A DNA stretch of 47,067 bases from an uncultured Methanospirillum sp. (GCA_964637135.1 CAZWTX010000019.1:1-47067); one strand, 5' to 3'; shown: positions 2,943 to 39,020, counted from the first letter of the stretch. The notes: generated from the sequence alone by a model not told the origin. A program made the numbers and translations.

Positions 2943-3312
2943 GGGTGTTGAGGTGGAACCTGAGAGGTGATGAATTGATGAGATCGACCGGTCTGTGATG
3001 CCCGGTGAAGTGCATGATTGAGCGCAGAATTCCGGATACATGCCTCCTGTTGACAGGAGATTTCTCCCGCACCCTGCCGGGATTTACGATCGAGATGGTT
3101 TTGATGCTCTCCGGAACAGCTCCCTGAAGGATCTGATTCCCCCCGTTTGGGCCCGGCAGTGACAGCCTGCGAATGCATGATCCTACCGTGGAGACTAGTT
3201 TTTGCCATCTATCCTGTCGCCATCACCAGATATCCCCCTTTCTGACCCTCCTCACCATGGCACCGGTATCATTACCATGCGAGCCGCAGAGAGGAATACT
3301 ACTACCAGTACC

Positions 3313-3921
3313 ATGATCACAAGTGAGGAAACCCGGGACGGCATCCGTGAACTGGTGAATATCGGCGTCGGACGGGCTGTCGGGCTGATACAGGAACTAA
3401 CCGGTGTTCATGTCGTTAGGAGGATTCCGGATCTGGATGTTCTCACCCCTGGTGAACCGGATCAGACTCATCTTTCCCAAAGCAGGGATCTCTCCGTCGT
3501 CAGGATGAAATACTGCGGAGATCTGCAGGGAGTCTGCGCACTGACCCTCCCGCATGACAGTGCCCGCCGGCTGGTATACCTGCTTACCGGGGAGGAAGCC
3601 CGGAATGATGATGCAGGCATGATTCTGGAAGAAACGCTCTGTGAAGTGGGCAATATGCTGATAAACGCGGTGATGGGATCGATTGCCAACATCACCAGGA
3701 GATCCCTGACGTATGATCTCCCGGTGTATACGGAGAACTCACTGGCATCCCTGGTATCGTCCGGAGTAAAAGAGCCGGGGGGGGATCCGGGTATCCTGGC
3801 ACGGACCGGTTTCCGGGTTACATCGCCCCTTATAGAAGGTGATATCCTGCTCTTTCTTGACAGCCGCTCGATCCTTCTCCTGGATGAAAGCATTGCCTCC
3901 CTGATCGGGCCTGTCCGGTGA
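3313..3921 (+). CDS. cheC: Stand-alone CheC-family CheY-P phosphatase
   Basis: Two ExxN-x~22-P motifs: DGIRELVNIG...RIP and ETLCEVGNML...DLP; start uncertain (3277 or 3313). Confidence 0.8.
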   Translation: MITSEETRDGIRELVNIGVGRAVGLIQELTGVHVVRRIPDLDVLTPGEPDQTHLSQSRDLSVVRMKYCGDLQGVCALTLPHDSARRLVYLLTGEEARNDDAGMILEETLCEVGNMLINAVMGSIANITRRSLTYDLPVYTENSLASLVSSGVKEPGGDPGILARTGFRVTSPLIEGDILLFLDSRSILLLDESIASLIGPVR

Positions 3922-11349: not shown

Positions 11350-11461
11350 GACGTTTCATGACCTTTAAGTAATATTTTTAACATATCCCTCGAATATTCT
11401 ACTATCATCGTATGACTTTACGGGAGGGCAGCCCGTGTCGTGACGATATTATGTGATCCAT

Positions 11462-13468
11462 ATGGATACCGCAATTCGCCGGGAAGTTCGGGGTTTACTC
11501 ATTAAGGGGGAGGATGCACTTGGTCGCCATGACTATGAGCGTGCATCCGGGTATTTCAGGAAGGCATACAGCCTGGATCCGGATAATATCAAGGCGGTAG
11601 TGAACCTGGGGTTTTCATATGTGAAAATGGGACGATTATCCCATGCCCAGAAATGTTTCAGTTCTGCACTTGAACTTGATCCGGAAAATCCGGTTGCTAA
11701 AAAGAATTTAAATCTCCTGACACGGCCCCAGACCCGTGCCGGGTACCAACCCCGGTACAAACCCAGACCAGAAGAAGAACTCTATATCAGGTATATGCAA
11801 TGGGGGAACCTCCAGTTCGACGCTGGTAACTACTATGCAGCAGTCCAGTATTACCAGTCAGCAGCTGCTATACATCCTGATTTCATCGAACCATATATGA
11901 AGACCGGGCTCTGTTATGAAGAACTGAGTGAATTTTCCCGTGCCGTATCTGCATACGAAGAGGCTCTCAGTATCTATCCGAATGACCCGGTGGCAAGGGA
12001 ACACCTCGCCACCTGTATGGGACTGATCGAGGAAGAAGAGAGCAGACCCCGTCCGAAACCCCCTGAAAAGCGGGTGATTCCGAAACCTCCGGAACCAGCA
12101 CCCCCGGAGACGGCCCGTCCGTCAACTCCCCAGGCCCCCGCCAGGTCTGCCGTCCGGTCTGATGATGACATGATCGATGCCATTCTCAACCAGTACAGCA
12201 ACCTCCTCTCCGATGCAGCCGAAAAGAAAGCAGTCACTGAAAAACAGGATCCGATTGAAGAAGAAAAACCCCTGATTGCCGGCGAAGAGAAAGCCGGCAG
12301 CGGAGAACCTGCTCCTGAGGCTGCTGCCGCCCCTGCTCCGGTAAAACCCTCCGCATCTCCTGGTGGTATGGATGATGCGGTGAGCAGTATTCTGAGCCAG
12401 TTTGCAGATGAGGTCCCTGCTGGTGAGGAGAAAGCGGCCGGCGAAGAGAAAGCCGGCAGTGGTGAACCTGCTCCTGAGGCTGCTGCCGCCCCTGCTCCGG
12501 CAAAACCCCCCGCATCTTCTGGCGGTATGGATGATGCGGTGAGCAGTATTCTGAGCCAGTTTGCAGATGAGGTCCCTGCTGGTGAGGAGAAAGCGGCCGG
12601 CGAAGAGAAAGCCGGCAGCGGAGAACCTGCTCCTGAGGTTGCTACTGCCCCGGCGAAACCCTCGGGTTCCCCGGGCGGCATGGATGATGCAGTGAGCAAT
12701 ATTCTGAGCCAGTTTGCGGATGAGATCCCCACCGATGGCAGAAATAAAGAAGAAGGAACATCTCCCGCTGAACCGGAATTTCAGACCGGTGCAGCACCTC
12801 TCTCCAGCGGAGACAAATTGCCCAAGAAAAATGGAATCCGGGTAGATCTGAACGATAACCAGAAAGATGCCCTTCGCGAACTCGGTAATATCGGGGCATC
12901 CCATGCAGCCACCACGCTCTCCACGATGCTCAACACCCCGATCATGCTCAATGTTCCGGAAATTGCGATCGTGGATTTTCACGAGATCAACCGGCAAATC
13001 ACCCAGGAAAACTCAGCCATGGTCATCTTCACCATGGAAGGACAGATGAAGCAGGCAGGATATGTCATCCTTCATGTTCCCCAGGAATCGGTTGTTCAGA
13101 TGACAAGCATCATGCTTGGAATGCCGATTGAACCAAACCGGGCACTCAACGAGATGGATGAGAGTGCAATCAACGAGATCGGAAACATCATGGTATCGGC
13201 GTTCCTTGACGGCACGGCTGAGCTCCTCGGGATAATCATGCTCCCATCACCGCCGAGAACCATATTTGATCTCCCGAAAAACGTCTTTGACCTCGTGATC
13301 AACGAGAGCAATATTCTCTATGACAACGTGGTCTTCTTCAAAACAGAACTCATCTGTGATGAGCATGAACTGAACCTGAACATCTTTATGATTCCAAACC
13401 CGCCGGTTCTGACGAGCATTGTCAGGATGCTGGAGAAGATCATCGAAGACTCGGCTTCAACGGAATAA
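11462..13468 (+). CDS. TPR-repeat protein with tandem-repeat linker and C-terminal CheC phosphatase domain
   Basis: Two N-terminal blocks of TPR repeats; Pro/Ala/Glu-rich repeated linker; CheC domain with DALRELGNIG and SAINEIGNIM...PSPP; convergent with cheD. Confidence 0.88.
   Translation: MDTAIRREVRGLLIKGEDALGRHDYERASGYFRKAYSLDPDNIKAVVNLGFSYVKMGRLSHAQKCFSSALELDPENPVAKKNLNLLTRPQTRAGYQPRYKPRPEEELYIRYMQWGNLQFDAGNYYAAVQYYQSAAAIHPDFIEPYMKTGLCYEELSEFSRAVSAYEEALSIYPNDPVAREHLATCMGLIEEEESRPRPKPPEKRVIPKPPEPAPPETARPSTPQAPARSAVRSDDDMIDAILNQYSNLLSDAAEKKAVTEKQDPIEEEKPLIAGEEKAGSGEPAPEAAAAPAPVKPSASPGGMDDAVSSILSQFADEVPAGEEKAAGEEKAGSGEPAPEAAAAPAPAKPPASSGGMDDAVSSILSQFADEVPAGEEKAAGEEKAGSGEPAPEVATAPAKPSGSPGGMDDAVSNILSQFADEIPTDGRNKEEGTSPAEPEFQTGAAPLSSGDKLPKKNGIRVDLNDNQKDALRELGNIGASHAATTLSTMLNTPIMLNVPEIAIVDFHEINRQITQENSAMVIFTMEGQMKQAGYVILHVPQESVVQMTSIMLGMPIEPNRALNEMDESAINEIGNIMVSAFLDGTAELLGIIMLPSPPRTIFDLPKNVFDLVINESNILYDNVVFFKTELICDEHELNLNIFMIPNPPVLTSIVRMLEKIIEDSASTE
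12278..12730 (+). repeat. Intragenic tandem repeat, ~3 copies of a 159-bp (53-aa) unit
   Basis: Units start at 12281, 12440 and 12599 (GGCGAAGAGAAAGCCGGCAG...); units 1 and 2 are nearly identical, unit 3 lacks 6 bp and is truncated. Confidence 0.95.
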
Positions 13469-13470
13469 AA

Positions 13471-13971
13471 TCAGATCTCTTTTGATTTTCCGTCTGCCTG
13501 CCTGATGAGATACCTGCCATTCTCGCGGGGATAGTAGGTGACCGTCCGTCCCACAGTTCCCCCGATATCTTCACGGACGATCGGGATATTGCGTTCTTTG
13601 AGAAGTTCCCTGAGCCGTTCCACGTTCCGGTCCCCGATGTTGAGATTACCGGAAAAATTCTGGAACATCGAGGCACCACCGGCCAGTTTCGCCCGCAGGG
13701 TTCCCGTTCTGCACCCTTTCTGGCCCAGTTCACGGAGAAGGATTTCAACCGCCGTATCAGCATATTTTCCAACCCGCTCACCTGGTTTTCCGGTTGAATT
13801 CGGAAGCATTACATGTGCCAGCCCGCCTATCTTCCGTTCTTCATCATGGATTACCAGTCCGACGCATGATCCGAGCCCTATGGACATCATGACGTCACCT
13901 CCCACACAGTATTCACCGATCCCGATGACGATGACCTCCTGCTGGTCATGGACAATGGTAGATCCATTCAT
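13471..13971 (-). CDS. cheD: Chemoreceptor glutamine deamidase CheD
   Basis: [40 protein letters not shown] and [10 protein letters not shown] motifs. Confidence 0.95.
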
Positions 13972-13993: not shown

Positions 13994-14644
13994 TTACCCT
14001 GATGATGCAATGACATTTTCCATCCTGACAAAGAGTTCTTTCAGGAGGTTTTTTCCCGGGAGTAAAATGATGTTGGCAATGATTTCATATTCTGCGCATT
14101 TTAGTTCTGTCCTGAAAAGAACCACCTGGTCGAGATCATCTTCGATCTCCTGGGTGGCGATGATTGTTTCAAGGGCGGCATGCGGCATATCGATCACCAG
14201 GGATGGCGGGGAAGGTATCATGATGATGGAGAGGAGGGTTGCACAGGCATCCAGGAATGCAGATGTCATGATGTTCCCGATCTCATTGAGAGCACTCATG
14301 TCCATGTCGTCCATTACCCGGTTGACATCGGTGAGCCCGAGCATGATGTTGGTCAGCCGGATGGAACTGCTCTCAGGGATATGGAGGAGAAGGTATCCTT
14401 CACTCTTGATCTGCCCCTGGATCTTGAAGACCACCATTGCAGCCTTACTGTCATCCAGATAATCCTGCAGACTCGAGAGATTCACGAGGATAATCTCAGG
14501 TACCCGGATGGTGATGAAGGTATTGAGCATGGTGGACAGGGTTGTTGCGGCATGTGCAGCACCGATATTGCCGAGCTCCCGGAGTTCATCTGCCTGCTGG
14601 TCAGTAATCGTGAATCCCCCATCGGTAATAACGTTATTGCGCAT
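13994..14644 (-). CDS. cheC: CheC domain, possibly translated independently from an internal ATG (216 aa)
   Basis: GGAGGGTGA SD 8 nt upstream of in-frame ATG 14644; motifs DELRELGNIG and SALNEIGNIM...PSPP. Confidence 0.65.
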   Translation of the reverse strand: MRNNVITDGGFTITDQQADELRELGNIGAAHAATTLSTMLNTFITIRVPEIILVNLSSLQDYLDDSKAAMVVFKIQGQIKSEGYLLLHIPESSSIRLTNIMLGLTDVNRVMDDMDMSALNEIGNIMTSAFLDACATLLSIIMIPSPPSLVIDMPHAALETIIATQEIEDDLDQVVLFRTELKCAEYEIIANIILLPGKNLLKELFVRMENVIASSG

Positions 14645-17023
14645 TATCTTTTTCACCCTCCCGCTGGTGTTTTTTTTTTGGCCTTTCTGACCTGCTCCCT
14701 CGCGAAGGATCCCTTTTACATCAAGGACCGGAACGACTTCCCCGTCTCCCGGGATGGTGACCCCTGAAACCCCTTCACAGGTTCCGACAAACTTTGAAAG
14801 CGGTTTGATAACCACTTCCTGCTGTCCCTCGATGAGATCTGCGATGATAGCCCCCTTTTTCTGCTGGTTCTGGATGACAACGATCACCTCCTCGTTCTGT
14901 GATCGTCCGAACATGTCATCCAGGCGATAGAGAACGATGATCTCATCCCGCATCAGGATCCCTTCACCATGACCGATGTTCTGGATCGGAAATGCAGCCA
15001 GACTTGCCACTTCCCCAACATTCGTGATGGGAATGGCACAGCGGCGCCCATTGATCCGGATCATCATGACCATCACGATGGCCATGGTGGGCGGTAAAAC
15101 CAGTTCAAACCGTGTCCCCTCTCCGAGAACCGATTCAAGTTTGATCGTTCCCTGGAGACCAGCTATCGTAGTTTTCACGACATCAAGACCGACACCCCGG
15201 CCACTGATATCGGTGATCTTGTCAGCCGTCGAAAAACCGGGGAGAAAGAGAAGATCGTTGCATTCTGCATCAGACATCAGGGCAGCGGCCTCTTCGGTGA
15301 TGAGACCGCGCTCAAGAGCTTTTCTCCGGATCTTTTCGGAATCTATCCCGCCGCCATCGTCCTCGATGACGATTACGACATTATCCTTATCTCGCGATGC
15401 GGAGAGTTTCAGGGTTCCTTTGGCCGGCTTTCCGTTCCTGACCCTGACATCCGGGGATTCGATCCCGTGATCAAGGCCATTGCGGATCAGGTGGAGAAGG
15501 GGATCGTTCAGGCCATCCATGACACTCCGATCAAGCTCGGTCTCGCCACCTTCCACGATGAAATCAACTTCCTTTCCTTCTTTCGTGGCAATATCGCGCA
15601 CCGTTCGCGGGAACCGGTTAAAAATATGGTTCAGGGGGATCATCCTGATATCCATCATCATAACCTGGAGGTCTGACACCGACCTCCCGACCATGTTGAG
15701 TGTCTCGTCGAGTTCCTTGATCTTGTGCTGTTGGGCGATCTGTTCTAGTCTTCCCCGGTTTATCACGAGATCCTCAACAAGGTTCATCATGTGATCGAGC
15801 CGGTCGATATCAACCCTGATGTTCTTGACTTCCCGTTTCTTCTCCACCTTCTCCGGTGTAGAACCGGGAATATGTTCGGCGATACCGGCCGGGACGGGAA
15901 CATCAGGCTGGCTGACGGGACATTCTTTCCGGGTTTCAACGCTGACTGTGGCTGATTTGATATCAGATCCCTTCAGGAGCCCCTCAATAGTGGTTTTATC
16001 CGCGTCAGATCCGAGAACGAGTTCCATCATCCCGTCAAAGGCATCGCTATCCTCGATAATCTCCCGCCCAGGTGTTATCGAGACGATTGTCCCGGATCCC
16101 TCCAGGTTCTGGAGCAGGATCATTGACCGCAGGTTCTTCGAGTCAACCGAAGAAGAGATCTCTATGTGAATCACGTACCGGTACCGGAAATCGGGGAGTG
16201 TCTCTGTCTGCCCGGTTGCTGGTGGCTGGATCGCCTTCGATGGCTCTGGGAACTCGGGAACGATCTTCTTCTCACTGATATCAGAGACCGAAAGAACCGT
16301 TTCAAGCGCTTCCTGGCCTGCGTTGCTGGAGAGGACGAGATCGATTGTTCCGGTAAAGGAGGCATCATCCTCGACGGTCTCCCGTGCCGGGCTAATCTCG
16401 ATGATCGTCCCGAGGTTTTCGAGGTTCTGCAGGATCAGCATTGCCCTGAGATTCCTGTTGTCAACATCCGCTGCAAGGCCGATATGGATCTGGTAATCCT
16501 GGATCTCTGACTGATCGCCTGACTCGTACGGAGGAATCTCGTACATGTCCCCGGTGGTGTCCTCTATCGGGACCGGTTCACCTTTTTGTTCTGGCACGGC
16601 AGCTGCCGGCTGACCTTTTTCCACTGCCGGGCTTTTTGCCTCACCAGTCATCCAGTTCTTCAGGGCCTTGACCCGGGCATCCTTATGCTCAAGAATACCG
16701 TCTCCTCCACCCTCAATCTCATCGATCATCTGCTCGATGTCATCGGTTCCGGCAAGAAGATCGTTGACGAGTGATTTGCTTACCTCAAGAACCCCTGACC
16801 GGATCTGGGAGAAAACATCTTCAAGGGCATGACAGATCTCCTCCATGTGCATAAAACCCATGGATGCAGACATACCTTTGAGCGAGTGTGCTGATCGGAA
16901 TATCTCGTCTATCGCAGTAGAATCAGTCCCCTGTTCAAGGATAAGGAGATTGCTGACCACTGCTTCAAGGTTTTCTCGTGATTCAGCAACGTAGAGGCTT
17001 CGGTATGCATCGAGATCTGACAT
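13994..17023 (-). CDS. cheA: Chemotaxis histidine kinase CheA (Hpt, two P2, dimerisation, HATPase, CheW-like P5) in frame with a C-terminal CheC domain
   Basis: FRSAHSLKG (phospho-His), DPLLHLIRNGLDHG, EDDGGG, SGRGVGLDVV, P5 domain, then a CheC domain; GGTGA SD before ATG 17023. Confidence 0.93.
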   Translation of the reverse strand: MSDLDAYRSLYVAESRENLEAVVSNLLILEQGTDSTAIDEIFRSAHSLKGMSASMGFMHMEEICHALEDVFSQIRSGVLEVSKSLVNDLLAGTDDIEQMIDEIEGGGDGILEHKDARVKALKNWMTGEAKSPAVEKGQPAAAVPEQKGEPVPIEDTTGDMYEIPPYESGDQSEIQDYQIHIGLAADVDNRNLRAMLILQNLENLGTIIEISPARETVEDDASFTGTIDLVLSSNAGQEALETVLSVSDISEKKIVPEFPEPSKAIQPPATGQTETLPDFRYRYVIHIEISSSVDSKNLRSMILLQNLEGSGTIVSITPGREIIEDSDAFDGMMELVLGSDADKTTIEGLLKGSDIKSATVSVETRKECPVSQPDVPVPAGIAEHIPGSTPEKVEKKREVKNIRVDIDRLDHMMNLVEDLVINRGRLEQIAQQHKIKELDETLNMVGRSVSDLQVMMMDIRMIPLNHIFNRFPRTVRDIATKEGKEVDFIVEGGETELDRSVMDGLNDPLLHLIRNGLDHGIESPDVRVRNGKPAKGTLKLSASRDKDNVVIVIEDDGGGIDSEKIRRKALERGLITEEAAALMSDAECNDLLFLPGFSTADKITDISGRGVGLDVVKTTIAGLQGTIKLESVLGEGTRFELVLPPTMAIVMVMMIRINGRRCAIPITNVGEVASLAAFPIQNIGHGEGILMRDEIIVLYRLDDMFGRSQNEEVIVVIQNQQKKGAIIADLIEGQQEVVIKPLSKFVGTCEGVSGVTIPGDGEVVPVLDVKGILREGAGQKGQKKNTSGRVKKIMRNNVITDGGFTITDQQADELRELGNIGAAHAATTLSTMLNTFITIRVPEIILVNLSSLQDYLDDSKAAMVVFKIQGQIKSEGYLLLHIPESSSIRLTNIMLGLTDVNRVMDDMDMSALNEIGNIMTSAFLDACATLLSIIMIPSPPSLVIDMPHAALETIIATQEIEDDLDQVVLFRTELKCAEYEIIANIILLPGKNLLKELFVRMENVIASSG

Positions 17024-17028
17024 GTGAT

Positions 17029-18057
17029 TCACCCAGACATGGTTCGGATAAACTCTTCGATCTTGACGGGAATGCTTTTCAGCGGAACAACATGGTCTAC
17101 ACAGTTCCGGCTGAGGGCCGATCGGGCCATACCATACACAAGACAGTCCTCTTCCCTGCAGACCATCGTGATACCACCTGCACGCTTAATGAATTCAGTT
17201 CCCTCACCACCGTCGTTCCCCATCCCTGAAAGAATAACAGATACAATCCTCTGCCCGTACACCTGGCTTGCGGAAGAAAACGTCTTGTCAACTGCCGGTT
17301 TCACATTGTGCACCGGTGGCGAATCGGCAAGAACGATCTTTCCCCCCTGGACCCCGCCCTTGTCCATGAACGAGGAGACGATGGTATGAAAACCCGCCTT
17401 AGAAACCAGCACTGTTCCTTTCTTGAGGACATCCCCGTTCTCGGTCTCCTTAATCCGGAGTTGTGAGATCCGGTCCAGGCGGTTTGCCAGTGCAGCGGTA
17501 AACCCGCCTTTTGGCATGTGCTGGGTAATGATGACTGCGGCATTCAGGCTGGCGGGAAGGGTGGATACGACCACGTCAAGCATGGGCGGTCCGCCGGCAG
17601 ATGAACCGACGAGGACGATGTTTCGTGCAATCTCATCCTTGAATGTCGGTTTTGCAGTAACATAAGCGATGGTACAGATATTCTTGATCTTCTGTTTCAG
17701 TTCCCCGGAGATCTCCCTGATATTCTTGATACCCCGGGGTTTGAGCATGAAATCATCTGCACCAAGAGCAATTGCCCGCTTCGTCATCTCTGCTCCTTCA
17801 GATGTGAGGGAACTGAGCATCAGGGTTTTAGGGAAACGGGTAAAATCCTTGCGTTTTTCAAGGACACCAAGTCCGTCAAGACGGGGCATCTCGATGTCAA
17901 GGGTAATAAGATCGGGTTTCAGCTCATGGATCTTCTCGAGCGCTTCTACGCCGTCGTTGGCAATTCCGACGATCTCGATCTCGGGATCGTCGGCAAGCAT
18001 ATCCTGTACTACGGTTCTGATGAAGAGTGAATCATCGATGACAAGAACCCGTATCAT
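17029..18057 (-). CDS. cheB: Chemotaxis response regulator protein-glutamate methylesterase CheB
   Basis: REC domain (VIDDS, TLDIEMP) plus methylesterase motifs GSSAGGP, QHMP and SGMGNDG. Confidence 0.95.
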   Translation of the reverse strand: MIRVLVIDDSLFIRTVVQDMLADDPEIEIVGIANDGVEALEKIHELKPDLITLDIEMPRLDGLGVLEKRKDFTRFPKTLMLSSLTSEGAEMTKRAIALGADDFMLKPRGIKNIREISGELKQKIKNICTIAYVTAKPTFKDEIARNIVLVGSSAGGPPMLDVVVSTLPASLNAAVIITQHMPKGGFTAALANRLDRISQLRIKETENGDVLKKGTVLVSKAGFHTIVSSFMDKGGVQGGKIVLADSPPVHNVKPAVDKTFSSASQVYGQRIVSVILSGMGNDGGEGTEFIKRAGGITMVCREEDCLVYGMARSALSRNCVDHVVPLKSIPVKIEEFIRTMSG

Positions 18058-18060
18058 GTG

Positions 18061-18423
18061 TCAAGCACCAAGGACATTCGCAATTTCTTCGAGAACCTTG
18101 GGAGCCTGGAACGGCTTGACAATATAGCCCCGGGCACCACTTTTGATGGCGAGTTTTACCATCTGCTCCTGTCCGACTGCAGTACACATGATAACCCGGG
18201 CATTGCCATCGAGGGATTTTATCGCTTTTAAAGCTTCTATCCCGTTCATCTTTGGCATGACCACATCCATGGTTACCAGGTCCGGTTTTAAATCCCGGTA
18301 CTTATTCACTCCGATATCCCCATCCTCGGCCTCACCGACGATCTCGTGACCGCCGGCAGTCAGGATGTTCTTCAGCAATGTTCGCATAAAAAGAGTATCA
18401 TCGACAATTAGGATTCGTCCCAT
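18061..18423 (-). CDS. cheY: Chemotaxis response regulator CheY
   Basis: 120-aa single REC domain (IVDD, TMDVVMP, YIVKPF); GGAGG SD; adjacent to cheB. Confidence 0.93.
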   Translation of the reverse strand: MGRILIVDDTLFMRTLLKNILTAGGHEIVGEAEDGDIGVNKYRDLKPDLVTMDVVMPKMNGIEALKAIKSLDGNARVIMCTAVGQEQMVKLAIKSGARGYIVKPFQAPKVLEEIANVLGA

Positions 18424-18490
18424 GGCTGAACGGTTCCTCCTATGATAAAGAAGCTATGTAATTGTAAAAGGATTGCGGAATCCCGGGGGG

Positions 18491-19312
18491 TTATCCGGGT
18501 GGTTTGAGTGCGTCAGTAATGTACCTGACTCCTTTGGGAGTGAGCTGGACCTCTTTTCTGATCATGACCACATCGACCAGCTTGAGTTTCAGCAACGTGT
18601 CATAAATCGTGTCCAGTTCTTTAGGAGAGAGATTAAGCATATTTTCGATAGACTTGGTGTCCATGCCGCTGTAAATGAGCATGGCTACCTGGGCGGTCTG
18701 GGCATCGAGTTGATCGAGATCCGATGCCTTCATGTCCATGTCTTTTGTGGAATCACGCAGGAAATTGTATAATACCTGCAGTGTTGAAAGGGGGCAGAGG
18801 ATAAAGCTGGTTACGACCTCACCCCCCTCCAGGTGATCGATCTTCACCACATCAAGTTTCTTCTTCTGTAGTTCCCGTTTTGTCAGTTCAAGGCTGGCTA
18901 CTTCCCGGAGCGGGACGCAGATAAGTTTCTCCTGGCTGACAAACCAGATACCGGTCTTTAAGACAGCTATTGCCCCTTTCTCCCACTTGGCATTGGTAAC
19001 AAGAACGCCACCTCTGATGGCCGGAGACATGAAATGGGCCATCAACCGGTATGCGTTGCAGGACATGATGATCTTCTTGTTCAATGCCTGCACAACTTTT
19101 TCGACCGAGGCGATCTTGTATGCCTTCTCACTCTTGTCAGGTTGAGTGGAAAGGATCGTGATCATCTGGCCCCGCTGCTGGAGATCGACAATACTCCGGT
19201 ACAGGATATCCTCGTTGTATGGTTCTTTCAGACTGATACGGTCTTTTACGATATCCAGCTTGGAAGTAACCCAGGAGCCCCCTTTCTCTATTTTTACCGG
19301 TACCTCAGCCAT
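18491..19312 (-). CDS. cheF: Archaeal chemotaxis adaptor CheF
   Basis: FMSPAIRGGV...WEKGAI motif typical of CheF/DUF439; C-terminal winged-helix-like segment; lies between the arl and che genes. Confidence 0.82.
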   Translation of the reverse strand: MAEVPVKIEKGGSWVTSKLDIVKDRISLKEPYNEDILYRSIVDLQQRGQMITILSTQPDKSEKAYKIASVEKVVQALNKKIIMSCNAYRLMAHFMSPAIRGGVLVTNAKWEKGAIAVLKTGIWFVSQEKLICVPLREVASLELTKRELQKKKLDVVKIDHLEGGEVVTSFILCPLSTLQVLYNFLRDSTKDMDMKASDLDQLDAQTAQVAMLIYSGMDTKSIENMLNLSPKELDTIYDTLLKLKLVDVVMIRKEVQLTPKGVRYITDALKPPG

Positions 19313-19345: not shown

Positions 19346-20399
19346 TTATTTCTTCCTTGCTTTTTTGGAGATGATATCCATGATCTGCTTTAGTTCTTCA
19401 GCCAGTTCCTCAGCAGTTACGCGGATATCTTTACCGTTAACAACGAGTTTACCGTCTTTAACTCTTCTTCAGATCCTCGATATCGGCCTTGAGTGAGGCA
19501 ATGAGGTCATCGTCACCGAGACCTCCTCCCGGTCTGCCGGAAAGTTCGAACTGTTCCTCCCCTTCAGATTCACCCTCGCCTCCCCCGTAATCGTAGGGTG
19601 AGGACTCCGATGAACTATAGGATGCGAGATCAGAAGAACTGATACTGTCTCCTCCTTCCATGCTGGTAATGATATCATCACCCCCGTCTGAACCGATGTC
19701 AATGGTACTTGAGTAGATATCATCGAGATCGTCGGAGACGTCATCATTATCCAGAATGATCTCGTCCTCCTCGTCCTTGGTCGCGATATCCATCTTTTTT
19801 ACGGCATCTTCACTTGGAAGGTCATCAAGGGCGGCGGTCTCGCCATAGGGAGTCCTGATGTTGTCAAACTCAGGGTTTACCCCGTCGAGTTCTGCATCGA
19901 TGTCAAGACCTTCGTCAAGATCGAGCCCTTCAAGATCGATGTCAATATCATCATCCTTCGGTTCCTGCCGGGGCGGCGCATCTTCATCTTCTTCTGCAGA
20001 CGCGGATGAAGCTGCCGGTTCGGGTTTTTTCTTTTCAGTTTTCTGTGGTTTTTCCTTTTTTTCCTTCGGGGCTGATTTAGGAAGGGATAGTGATGGAAGG
20101 GCCGGCATCTTGAGAGAGAATCCCTTCAGCATACTCCCCTTTTCGGTACTCTTCGCCTTTTCCTTCTTTGGCTTTGGTTTTTTCTCTTTTTTCGGGCGGT
20201 TTTTGAACCTGATGAAAAGGTCATGGATCACTTCAGACAGGATCAGGGTTCCTGTGATGACGAGGAGTGCCAGTGCCAGGAAGATAACCGCCATCATCAG
20301 ATAGAGGACTGGAATATCGAAGATAAGTAAAATGGATCCCCCAAGCACGATGGTTACGAAGATAAGTAGTCGTCTGTTTGAATCTGTTAACTCCACCAT
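19346..20399 (-). CDS. Membrane-anchored Lys-rich/acidic protein of the archaellum cluster, apparently frameshifted near its 3' end (ORF stops at 19458; likely true stop 19346)
   Basis: Two N-terminal TM segments, Lys-rich then Asp/Glu-rich regions; a second frame continues ...KDIRVTAEELAEELKQIMDIISKKARKK* to 19346. Confidence 0.65.
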
Positions 20400-22022: not shown

Positions 22023-23618
22023 TCAGATATCGATCGCCAGCAGACCCTGTTTCTTCAATTTGGTGATCATGTTAAAGAGTTCGATGAAATCGGTATATCC
22101 TGCCTTATGAAGCCGTTCGAGGATTTTTGCCCGCTTTTCAACTTCCATGTAGATCATTGCCTTTTTATGTTCAGGAATACCGAGCATGGTGGCGATCTTT
22201 GTCTCGAGCATGTAACTTGCTCCTTTCCCGGTGAATTCATGAGTATCCGTGACCGGGTCCCAGGTAAAGACCTGGACGAATGAGAACCCCCCGCTTTCTG
22301 CATCGTACCCGACCAGTTCGCTCACCGATAACTGGCGACGGACATTGGATCCATCAGGCCGCCGCACTGCACTCTGGATGACCACCAGGTTCAGGTTATC
22401 GACGAACGTCTTCGGGATGAGGATCGGATCTCCGGTAAGACGCTGGATCAGTTTTTCCACCGATGCCGCGTGGAACGTACTCATACACGGGTGACCGGTC
22501 TGCATCGCACCAAAGGCAACTGATCCTTCCGTTCCACGGATTTCTCCGACCATGATCATGTTCGGCCGCTGACGGAGTGCAGCCCTGAGAAGGTCGAACA
22601 TGGTGACATCCCCGCCTTCTCCTTCGCCCTTCCCTTTCCCTTTTGAGACTTCACGTGACCAGTTCTTATGGGGAATGATGAGTTCAGGGGTGTCTTCGAT
22701 GCTGACGATTTTTGATTCGGGTGCAATAAACGCGGTCAGGGCATTCATACTGGTGGTCTTCCCGCTCGCCGTCTCCCCTGACATGAAGAGTGACATCCCG
22801 TTCTCGATGCAGATCCAGAGATACGCAGCAAGCTGGTAGCTGCAGGTCCCGAATTCGACCAGTTTGGTGATCGAGATAACATCATCCATCGCTTTACGGA
22901 TGGTGAAGTTACTCCCCTTCCTGCTGATCTCAGTCGAGTACACGATATTGATACGGGAACCGTCAGGAAGCGTCGCATCACAGATCGGGTTCCGGTAGGT
23001 GATCGGCCGGCGGGCNNNNNNNNNNNNNNNNNNNNNNNNNNNNNNNNNNNNNNNNNNNNNNNNNNNNNNNNNNNNNNNNNNNNNNNNNNNNNNNNNNNNN
23101 NNNNNNNNNNNNNNNGGATTGATTGCCTCACCCGGTTTCTTGATGTATAGAACCTGGCGAAGCAGACGCTTAAGAACGGTAGTCCGCTCTTCAGGAGTTT
23201 CCGGGTCCTCTTCAAGGGCATCAAGAAGATCTACGAGCCGGTACTCGACAGCCGGGATAAGTTTCCCGATATTATGCATGAATGACGGTTCAATCGGGAT
23301 ATAGAAGTTCCTGACATCATTCGGGTCAAAGAAGATATGAATGAAGATCGGGGGTTTCGCCGGGTATATAAGGTTTGGATCCTTGATTCCTTTCAGATCA
23401 CGCTTGAGTTCTGAAAAGAAAAGGGGGATGCCGTATTCATCTACCGGAAAAATGTGAAGATATTCAAGGAGGTGGGGATAGTTCTTGACGTATTCTTTTG
23501 CATTCGCCGGAAGCATCCTGAACAGTGCGCAGGATTCCGGGTTTATCAGGCACTCTTCAGTGTCGTGGCTCTCAGCCTCCTCAAAGGGGATTTTCCCCTG
23601 GATCTGCAGTCGTGCCAT
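22023..23618 (-). CDS. arlI: Archaellum motor ATPase ArlI (FlaI), interrupted by an assembly gap
   Basis: DATLPDGSRINI, Walker A GETASGKT, SIEDTPE, ALRQRP, Walker B VGEIRG, His-box TGH/TFHA. Confidence 0.93.
   Translation of the reverse strand: MARLQIQGKIPFEEAESHDTEECLINPESCALFRMLPANAKEYVKNYPHLLEYLHIFPVDEYGIPLFFSELKRDLKGIKDPNLIYPAKPPIFIHIFFDPNDVRNFYIPIEPSFMHNIGKLIPAVEYRLVDLLDALEEDPETPEERTTVLKRLLRQVLYIKKPGEAINXXXXXXXXXXXXXXXXXXXXXXXXXXXXXXXXXXARRPITYRNPICDATLPDGSRINIVYSTEISRKGSNFTIRKAMDDVISITKLVEFGTCSYQLAAYLWICIENGMSLFMSGETASGKTTSMNALTAFIAPESKIVSIEDTPELIIPHKNWSREVSKGKGKGEGEGGDVTMFDLLRAALRQRPNMIMVGEIRGTEGSVAFGAMQTGHPCMSTFHAASVEKLIQRLTGDPILIPKTFVDNLNLVVIQSAVRRPDGSNVRRQLSVSELVGYDAESGGFSFVQVFTWDPVTDTHEFTGKGASYMLETKIATMLGIPEHKKAMIYMEVEKRAKILERLHKAGYTDFIELFNMITKLKKQGLLAIDI
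23016..23115. other. Scaffold gap (100 N)
   Basis: Run of exactly 100 N, a conventional unknown-size gap. Confidence 0.98.
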
Positions 23619-38942: not shown

Positions 38943-39020
38943 GTGTGATGCTCACGTGTCTGTTATTCCGGGCCGTCCGGAAATCTTCCGGTACAGCTAA
39001 GGCATTCTAAAAAAGAAAAG

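What the first reader, a model, noticed from the sequence alone, without database searches (positions are those of the whole stretch)
14634..14690. A10 tract decides whether CheA and CheC are fused; CheC keeps its own SD and ATG
On the coding strand the linker reads GGC CAA AAA AAA AAC ACC AGC GGG AGG GTG AAA AAG ATA ATG. The A10 run (14670-14679) contains an in-frame A-AAA-AAC slippery heptamer. With 10 A the kinase reads into CheC. With 9 A, CheA stops at TGA 14655-14653, inside the SD GGAGGGTGA. With 11 A, or a -1 ribosomal shift, it stops at TAA 14636-14634, just past ATG 14644. Either shift gives an ordinary cheA, cheC gene pair (all seen). The locus could therefore yield CheA, CheC and a kinase-phosphatase fusion through transcriptional slippage, frameshifting or phase variation (inference). 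A homopolymer sequencing error, or a recently fixed fusion, is equally possible.
Basis: partly seen in the sequence, partly recalled or inferred. Interest (0 to 1): 0.75.

Follow-up and report, generated by a model that had tools for sequence, protein, structure and literature searches.

The report
Hidden CheC start inside fused cheA
In Methanospirillum archaea the chemotaxis kinase CheA and the phosphatase CheC are one fused gene, and a ribosome-binding signal with a start codon is conserved at the junction across the genus, so the gene likely also makes free CheC, while the A-run that drew attention is not conserved and is likely a side feature.

Summary
The A10 run, both out-of-frame stops and the SD/ATG are real. 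The run is not an assembly error and not a conserved switch. The fusion is in frame in 22 of 23 other genus genomes covering the linker, and only 3 of the 23 have a run of 9 A or more. The fusion architecture is already listed in a 2023 supplement.

What is conserved is the internal start signal. In 25 fused sequences, AGG (R792) and GTG (V793) are the only columns with no synonymous change, of 76 six-fold and 127 four-fold columns. All 25 have an in-frame ATG or GTG with anti-SD pairing of -8.5 kcal/mol or stronger, and one lineage moved both start and SD. A stand-alone paralog begins at the matching Met.

Best reading: one gene yields the fusion plus free CheC by internal initiation (inferred, untested). 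The sister genome G011 is split by a frameshift at this run, so breakage here seems tolerated. A review-level precedent exists in bacteria; one 2025 paper claims the first proven archaeal case.

The parts
13994..17023 (-). cheA-cheC fusion ORF (1009 aa from ATG 17023, about 110 kDa; ORF open from GTG 17032): Hpt-P2-P2-dimer-HATPase-CheW-linker-CheC
14670..14679 (-). A10 run inside the Q-K-K-N codons of the linker; not conserved; homologous run is the break point in split sister genome G011
14653..14662 (-). Internal Shine-Dalgarno-like element GGGAGGGTGA; core AGG GTG (14659-14654, R792-V793) has no synonymous change across 25 fused sequences
14642..14644 (-). Internal in-frame ATG (M797), inferred start of free CheC
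13994..14644 (-). Inferred free CheC (216 aa, 23.7 kDa) with both D/S-x3-E-x2-N sites (D815-E819-N822, S913-E917-N920)
14653..14655 (-). Out-of-frame TGA reached if the run lost one A (789-aa CheA)
14634..14636 (-). Out-of-frame TAA reached if the run gained one A (796-aa CheA)
13471..13971 (-). cheD, 22 nt downstream of the fusion stop; textbook partner of CheC
17029..19312 (-). Upstream operon genes cheF, cheY, cheB, next to the archaellum genes

Best explanation
The locus is a genus-wide, in-frame cheA-cheC fusion that keeps a conserved Shine-Dalgarno-like element and start codon at the domain boundary, so ribosomes likely start both at the cheA ATG (110-kDa kinase-phosphatase fusion) and inside the gene at M797 (24-kDa free CheC). 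Shown: the fusion, its age, the nucleotide-level constraint on AGG GTG, a start codon 6-9 nt after it, strong anti-SD pairing and intact CheC motifs. Inferred: that ribosomes use the internal start; that the fusion tethers phosphatase to the receptor array while free CheC works with the adjacent CheD in adaptation. The A10 run is a by-product of AAA lysine codons. Because CheC has its own start, an indel in the run would cost only the tether, which would explain why the sister genome G011 persists as a split pair.
For: Fusion in frame in 23 of 24 genus genomes covering the linker (G000 included), including complete genomes of M. lacunae, M. stamsii and M. purgamenti; 15 of 15 genomes examined from other families are split. 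In 25 non-redundant fused sequences, with synonymous sites near saturation (median third-position identity 0.345), V793 is GTG in 22 of 22 and is the only one of 127 four-fold columns with 0 changes (next lowest 3); R792 is AGG in 22 of 22 and the only one of 76 six-fold columns with 0 changes. Control: cheD in 19 of those sequences has 0 of 42 and 0 of 26 such columns. Amino-acid changes keep the SD: R>K gives AGGTGA, R>G gives GAGGTG, V>G gives AGGGGG. 25 of 25 have an in-frame ATG/GTG at -8.5 kcal/mol or stronger against the genus 16S tail; this site ranks first of 32 two-column windows with a conserved start codon (24 sequences at <= -8.4, next best 7). L010 lost the ATG but has GTG at the neighbouring codon; L049 lost it and gained an ATG three codons upstream with a new SD at -9.1. 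The genome's stand-alone CheC paralog (C8, 55.6% identical) has a Met aligned to M797 with its own SD at -7.1. G011, sister to G000 (support 98, 0.997), is split at the homologous run and keeps the ATG.
Against: No protein, ribosome-profiling or RNA evidence. In the window the GGTG-to-ATG gap is 9 nt, at the long edge of the 4-8 nt peak among operon starts (11 of 81 GGTG-bearing starts have 9 or more). The genome has three other CheC/CheX-family genes, so free CheC is not obviously needed from this locus. Some more distant fused lineages have no or a weak internal start (L099 none, L056 -4.8), so the fusion can exist without it. The 25 sequences are kin; the test counted changes on a tree but is one natural experiment. 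The 'true start' set is a crude automatic one (418 ATGs).
Confidence: 0.7

Rival explanations
1. The A10 run is used in this lineage as a switch (transcriptional slippage, -1 ribosomal frameshift or phase variation), giving short CheA plus CheC as well as the fusion. This can coexist with the internal start.
For: A10 exceeds the nine-A length at which selection against slippage is evident in many bacterial genomes, and T. thermophilus dnaX uses A9 (PMC1088944, passages). It is the longest homopolymer in the window. The sister genome G011 has A10 at the same place and is split; its 781-aa CheA is held by both NCBI and Logan. Runs of 9 also occur in G008 and G010.
Against: Run of 9 or more in 3 of 23 other genomes; heptamer in 4 of 23. 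K786 is Arg in 14 of 25 and its third position changes 6 times. No downstream structure (z = -0.33). Contigs from 4 studies show A10 only, though contigs drop rare variants. A10 frequency in the genome is at chance.
Confidence: 0.12
2. AGG GTG is conserved for another nucleotide-level reason, such as an SD-type ribosome pause between domains or a protein or RNase site, and only the fusion is made.
For: The motif lies at a domain boundary; spacing to the ATG is long in the window's clade; other CheC-family genes exist.
Against: A pause or binding site does not need a start codon, yet 25 of 25 keep one; the start shifts between two codons and in L049 start and SD move together. The paralog's N-terminus matches M797. 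No TATA-like element in 14640-15300.
Confidence: 0.12
3. The SD and ATG are an unused remnant of a recent fusion.
For: Split cheA, cheC is the state in 15 of 15 genomes of other families, so the signal descends from a real cheC start.
Against: The fusion predates the genus radiation and synonymous sites are near saturation; an unused element would have decayed as neighbouring codons did (4-12 third-position changes at most nearby columns).
Confidence: 0.05
4. A10 is an assembly error and the genes are separate in this organism.
For: The genome is a 116-contig assembly and its sister G011 is split.
Against: An independent study's contig (X4) bridges the run with 0 differences; no indel in any of 4 runs; in-frame fusion is the genus norm.
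Confidence: 0.01

Closest known systems
F1-class CheA-CheC fusions (Berry et al. 2023, PMC10782961)
   Same: Same architecture. [quoted passage not shown] The text proposes a dual kinase/phosphatase role for such fusions.
   Different: The main-text passages I saw name only Leptospirae for this fusion ('methano' 0 hits) and say nothing of an internal start or secondary splitting.
Haloferax volcanii Cas11b inside cas8b (PMC11899642)
   Same: Internal in-frame Met with an SD-like element yields the C-terminal domain as a separate protein in an archaeon (abstract and section 4.1).
   Different: Cas11b is proven by experiment and serves complex stoichiometry in CRISPR; here the case is comparative only, is in chemotaxis, and comes from a fusion of two genes that are separate in related families.
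E. coli CheA-L / CheA-S (review PMC13515050)
   Same: A cheA gene makes two products through an internal start, and the short one is tied to CheY-P dephosphorylation (passages).
   Different: CheA-S starts at AUG98 near the N-terminus and recruits CheZ; here the internal product would be the phosphatase itself.
SpaO-L / SpaO-S type tandem translation (review PMC13515050)
   Same: Full-length protein plus its C-terminal domain from an internal start (passages).
   Different: Structural subunit stoichiometry in a bacterial secretion system, not signalling enzymes.
T. thermophilus dnaX A9 transcriptional slippage (PMC1088944)
   Same: Long A-run late in a gene, upstream of a C-terminal domain (passage).
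   Different: Here the run is not conserved and no slipped transcripts were examined.
B. subtilis / T. maritima CheC-CheD adaptation system (PMC3513319; PDB 1XKR, 2F9Z)
   Same: CheC domain matches T. maritima CheC at E 2.7e-23; cheD is the next gene.
   Different: CheC is a separate gene there; catalytic roles were not confirmed in Halobacterium as of the 2018 review (PMC7289035, passage).

Membership tests
CheA histidine kinase | Hpt with phospho-acceptor His, dimerisation, HATPase_c and CheW domains | tested here: met
   All four above Pfam cut-off; His in SAHSLKG (its role is recalled)
CheA histidine kinase | Autophosphorylation and transfer to CheY/CheB | not testable with these tools
   No assay
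CheC phosphatase | Two D/S-x3-E-x2-N sites (motif recalled) and homology to solved CheC | tested here: met
   D815-E819-N822 and S913-E917-N920; alignment to 1XKR/2F9Z
CheC phosphatase | CheY-P hydrolysis and CheD binding | not tested
   No assay; no complex prediction was run
CheA-CheC fusion (Berry 2023) | Single ORF Hpt,P2,P2,dimer,HATPase,CheW,CheC | tested here: met
Internal in-frame translation initiation (Cas11b, CheA-S, SpaO-S kind) | In-frame start codon at a domain boundary with a ribosome-binding site | tested here: met
   M797, -11.8 kcal/mol; paralog starts at the aligned Met
Internal in-frame translation initiation (Cas11b, CheA-S, SpaO-S kind) | Signal conserved beyond what the protein requires | tested here: met
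   0 synonymous changes at R792 and V793; start in 25 of 25
Internal in-frame translation initiation (Cas11b, CheA-S, SpaO-S kind) | Short product detected and lost when the start is mutated | not testable with these tools
   Needs proteomics or a reporter
Programmed -1 ribosomal frameshift | In-frame X XXY YYZ heptamer | tested here: met
   A AAA AAA and A AAA AAC in the window
Programmed -1 ribosomal frameshift | Conserved slippery site | tested here: not met
   4 of 23 other genus genomes
Programmed -1 ribosomal frameshift | Downstream stimulatory structure | tested here: not met
   z = -0.33, 65 of 200 shuffles fold as well; pseudoknots not tested
Transcriptional slippage site (dnaX type) | Run of 9 or more A/T in the coding strand | tested here: met
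   A10
Transcriptional slippage site (dnaX type) | Run-length heterogeneity in RNA but not DNA | not tested
   No RNA reads over the linker were examined
Phase-variable homopolymer tract | Length variants within the species or population | tested here: inconclusive
   Only A10 in contigs of 4 runs, but contigs drop rare variants; a split form exists in the sister species G011

The most novel reading that the evidence does not exclude
Methanospirillum cheA-cheC is a 'gene within a gene': a selected internal ribosome-binding site makes free CheC alongside an array-bound kinase-phosphatase fusion. It would be one of very few archaeal cases of internal in-frame initiation and, as far as my searches reach, the first in archaeal chemotaxis. 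The retained start makes the fusion reversible, so it has split again (G011 at the A-run, the L058/L059/L104 lineage, perhaps P0048), and in A9/A10 lineages slippage may add untethered CheA as a third product.
Probability: 0.6. Interest if true: 0.7.

Novelty: new variant of a known kind. Interest (0 to 1): 0.55.

Why it matters
[quoted passage not shown] This locus offers a candidate second case, backed by genus-wide selection, in cultured species (M. hungatei, M. lacunae, M. stamsii, M. purgamenti), with a cheap test: a 24-kDa band or an N-terminal peptide. It would show one gene supplying both array-tethered and diffusible CheC, which bears on the open question of how CheC's phosphatase and CheD-binding roles are divided. 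It also gives a sequence-level account of how a fusion can stay reversible. Gene callers annotate only the fusion, so the short product would be missed.

Tried and rejected
1) Assembly error: rejected. 2) Recent fusion: rejected. 3) Conserved -1 frameshift: rejected; heptamer in 4 of 23 other genomes, no structure. 4) The 'open_frame_aa' values of 860-1060 for G026, G027, G031 and G038 suggested fusions in other families; the DNA shows a stop between cheA and cheC in each. 5) X2 and X3 contigs both end near 14660; I did not count this as a sign of polymorphism (depth 3-6, ends about 10 nt from the run). 6) Internal promoter: no TATA-like motif in 14640-15300, none exact in the window; the sigma-70 scan does not suit an archaeon. 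This is a weak negative. 7) No 16S gene in G000, so the anti-SD came from three complete genus genomes. 8) AlphaFold model of residues 654-1012: mean pLDDT 55, with 1-141 (CheW and linker) below 50 and CheC mostly above; too poor to use as evidence about the linker. 9) P0048 (769 aa, ends in the linker) may be a further split or a truncated call; its DNA was not seen, so it is not counted. 11) Literature: 'CheA-CheC' gave one work; 'CheC + internal start + Methanospirillum' gave 0; Mhun_0109-0111 gave 0 (tags guessed). Subscription journals are mostly missing from the library. 12) Earlier scan findings: none. 13) The tree is the quick version; the careful search did not finish; L023 and G011 rows are short or long-branched. 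G007 was dropped (linker off the contig); 12 near-duplicate loci were dropped before the count. 14) No complex prediction was run: CheC-CheD is a textbook pair.

Full report
OBSERVATION. The window is contig C19 of a 2.8-Mb, 116-contig genome, 97.7% complete. Its closest named relatives are Methanospirillum. On the minus strand lie archaellum genes, cheF, cheY, cheB, a 1009-aa cheA-cheC ORF and cheD. The shifted products would be 789 and 796 aa. The CheC part has both D/S-x3-E-x2-N sites (motif recalled) and aligns to T. maritima CheC at E 2.7e-23.

THE RUN IS REAL BUT ORDINARY. Contigs from four runs of four studies show no indel; X4 bridges the run with no difference, X1 may be the window's source, and X2 and X3 cover it with 9-10 letters on one side. 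Contigs drop rare variants, so minor A9/A11 alleles are not excluded. The genome has 5 A/T runs of 10 or more on a smooth decline, and coding A>=10 runs number 2 against 4.6 expected. Of 24 other genus genomes, 23 cover the linker: 22 are fused in frame and one is split. The run at the homologous site is 9 or more in 3 of 23, and a slippery heptamer is there in 4 of 23. The sequence downstream folds no better than shuffles (z = -0.33). So the tract is not a conserved recoding site.

THE FUSION IS OLD AND ALREADY LISTED. All 15 genomes examined from other families have separate cheA and cheC. Fusions also occur in lineages outside the genus (L056, L099-L102, P0042-P0046). Of 48 proteins found with the junction region, 46 cover it fully and 2 end in the linker (only lengths 556-1771 were searched). 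Berry et al. 2023 (PMC10782961; I saw main-text passages and supplement rows) discuss CheA-CheC fusions for Leptospirae and list the Methanospirillum ones in supplement file 3.

WHAT IS CONSERVED IS THE INTERNAL START. I aligned codons of 25 non-redundant fused sequences (37 taken, 12 near-duplicates dropped) and counted synonymous changes on a tree. Third positions are near saturation (median identity 0.345). V793 is GTG in 22 of 22 and is the only one of 127 four-fold columns with no change; R792 is AGG in 22 of 22 and the only one of 76 six-fold columns with no change. In cheD, from 19 of the same sequences, 0 of 42 and 0 of 26 columns are invariant. Where the amino acid changes the SD survives: AAG GTG (AGGTGA), AGA GGT GTG (GAGGTG), AGG GGG. 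The genus 16S tail ends GAUCACCUCCU. All 25 sequences have an in-frame ATG or GTG pairing with it at -8.5 kcal/mol or better; the window's site is -11.8, stronger than 96% of 418 operon-internal starts and matched by 0.7% of sampled internal Met codons. It ranks first of 32 conserved start-codon windows in the alignment. The start sits at either of two adjacent codons; L010 uses GTG; L049 lost it and gained an ATG upstream with a new SD. The genome's stand-alone CheC paralog on C8 has a Met aligned with M797 and its own SD, which shows that this is a workable N-terminus. Against: the GGTG-to-ATG gap here is 9 nt, on the long edge of the genome's distribution; three other CheC/CheX-family genes exist; and L099 is fused with no internal start.

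A NATURAL SPLIT AT THE RUN. G011 has A10 at the homologous place, but one base out of frame. CheA ends at C5:39030-39028 and CheC keeps an ATG at 39014 with a -6.0 SD. Its CheA tail is homologous to the fused linker, and it is sister to the window's genome, nested among fused sequences (98, a quick tree; 0.997; long branch). The neighbouring genes in 19 kb are intact apart from an N gap. The 781-aa protein is held by NCBI and Logan as a one-member cluster. It is most likely a real secondary split, but an error at the region's only A10 is not excluded. L058/L059/L104 are split and also fall inside the fused clade.

MECHANISM. Shown: fusion, conserved SD, conserved start, intact CheC, adjacent cheD. 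Inferred: ribosomes start at ATG 17023 to make the 110-kDa fusion and at ATG 14644 to make 24-kDa CheC. The fusion would hold phosphatase at the receptor array through CheA's CheW domain. Free CheC would bind CheD in response to CheY-P, as in B. subtilis, where that binding matters more than catalysis (PMC3513319, abstract; PMC7289035, passages). With CheC independently started, an indel in the run costs only the tether, so long runs are tolerated and the gene can split. I put this at 0.7; functional slippage or phase variation at 0.12; another nucleotide-level role such as a pause at 0.12; unused remnant 0.05; error 0.01.

COMPARISON. [quoted passage not shown] It is a member of the CheA-CheC fusion class by architecture. 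It meets the sequence criteria for internal initiation, but the product is undetected. It fails the conservation and stimulator tests for programmed -1 frameshifting. Slippage of the T. thermophilus dnaX kind (PMC1088944, passages) meets the length criterion only. Other papers seen as passages added nothing on the fusion (PMC5847659, PMC2666748, PMC4704411). Searches showed no report of an internal CheC start in Methanospirillum; most hits were seen as listings only, and subscription journals are mostly missing.

VERDICT. Observation confirmed; interpretation partly supported. The A10 switch is not the conserved mechanism. The conserved internal start is, and it is a new variant of a known kind with a simple test. 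Interest 0.55.

Noticed in passing
window 11453-13468 (+): TPR repeats, a long Pro/Ala/Glu-rich region with three repeats of a short acidic helix-like motif, then a full CheC domain with both sites; it converges on cheD with stops 2 nt apart. A homolog lies in the same place in most genus genomes. A second CheC fusion in one locus.
   Followed up: partly
G000 C8:29703-30347 (L120): Stand-alone CheC paralog, 55.6% identical to the fused CheC, away from any che operon; its first site lacks the leading D/S.
   Followed up: partly
window 3277-3921 (+): A further CheX/CheC-family gene (Pfam CheX).
   Followed up: no
L101, L102 (P0045, P0046): A distant fused lineage also has AAG GTG followed by an in-frame ATG at -8.5 kcal/mol, so the internal start may be older than the genus.
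   Followed up: partly
L099, L056/L100, P0042-P0044: Fused lineages outside the genus with no internal start (L099) or a weak one (L056, -4.8): natural 'fusion only' comparators.
   Followed up: partly
P0048: 769-aa CheA ending inside the linker, nested in the genus next to fused P0033; seen on 3 contigs. Possible further split; DNA not seen.
   Followed up: partly
G015 C212 and C300 (L003, L042): One genome bin holds two near-identical copies of the fusion on different contigs, perhaps a strain mixture.
   Followed up: no
G000 C82: The genome's only other sense-strand coding A10 lies at 98% of its ORF's length, where an indel would also cost little.
   Followed up: no
window about 22745-23221: A run of N interrupts the flaI-like gene (ORF 22023-23618 is shorter than the 639-aa G011 counterpart).
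   Followed up: no
window 19458-20399 (-): 313-aa membrane-anchored acidic protein between the T2SSF-family gene and cheF with no Pfam match; a counterpart is present in G011.
   Followed up: no
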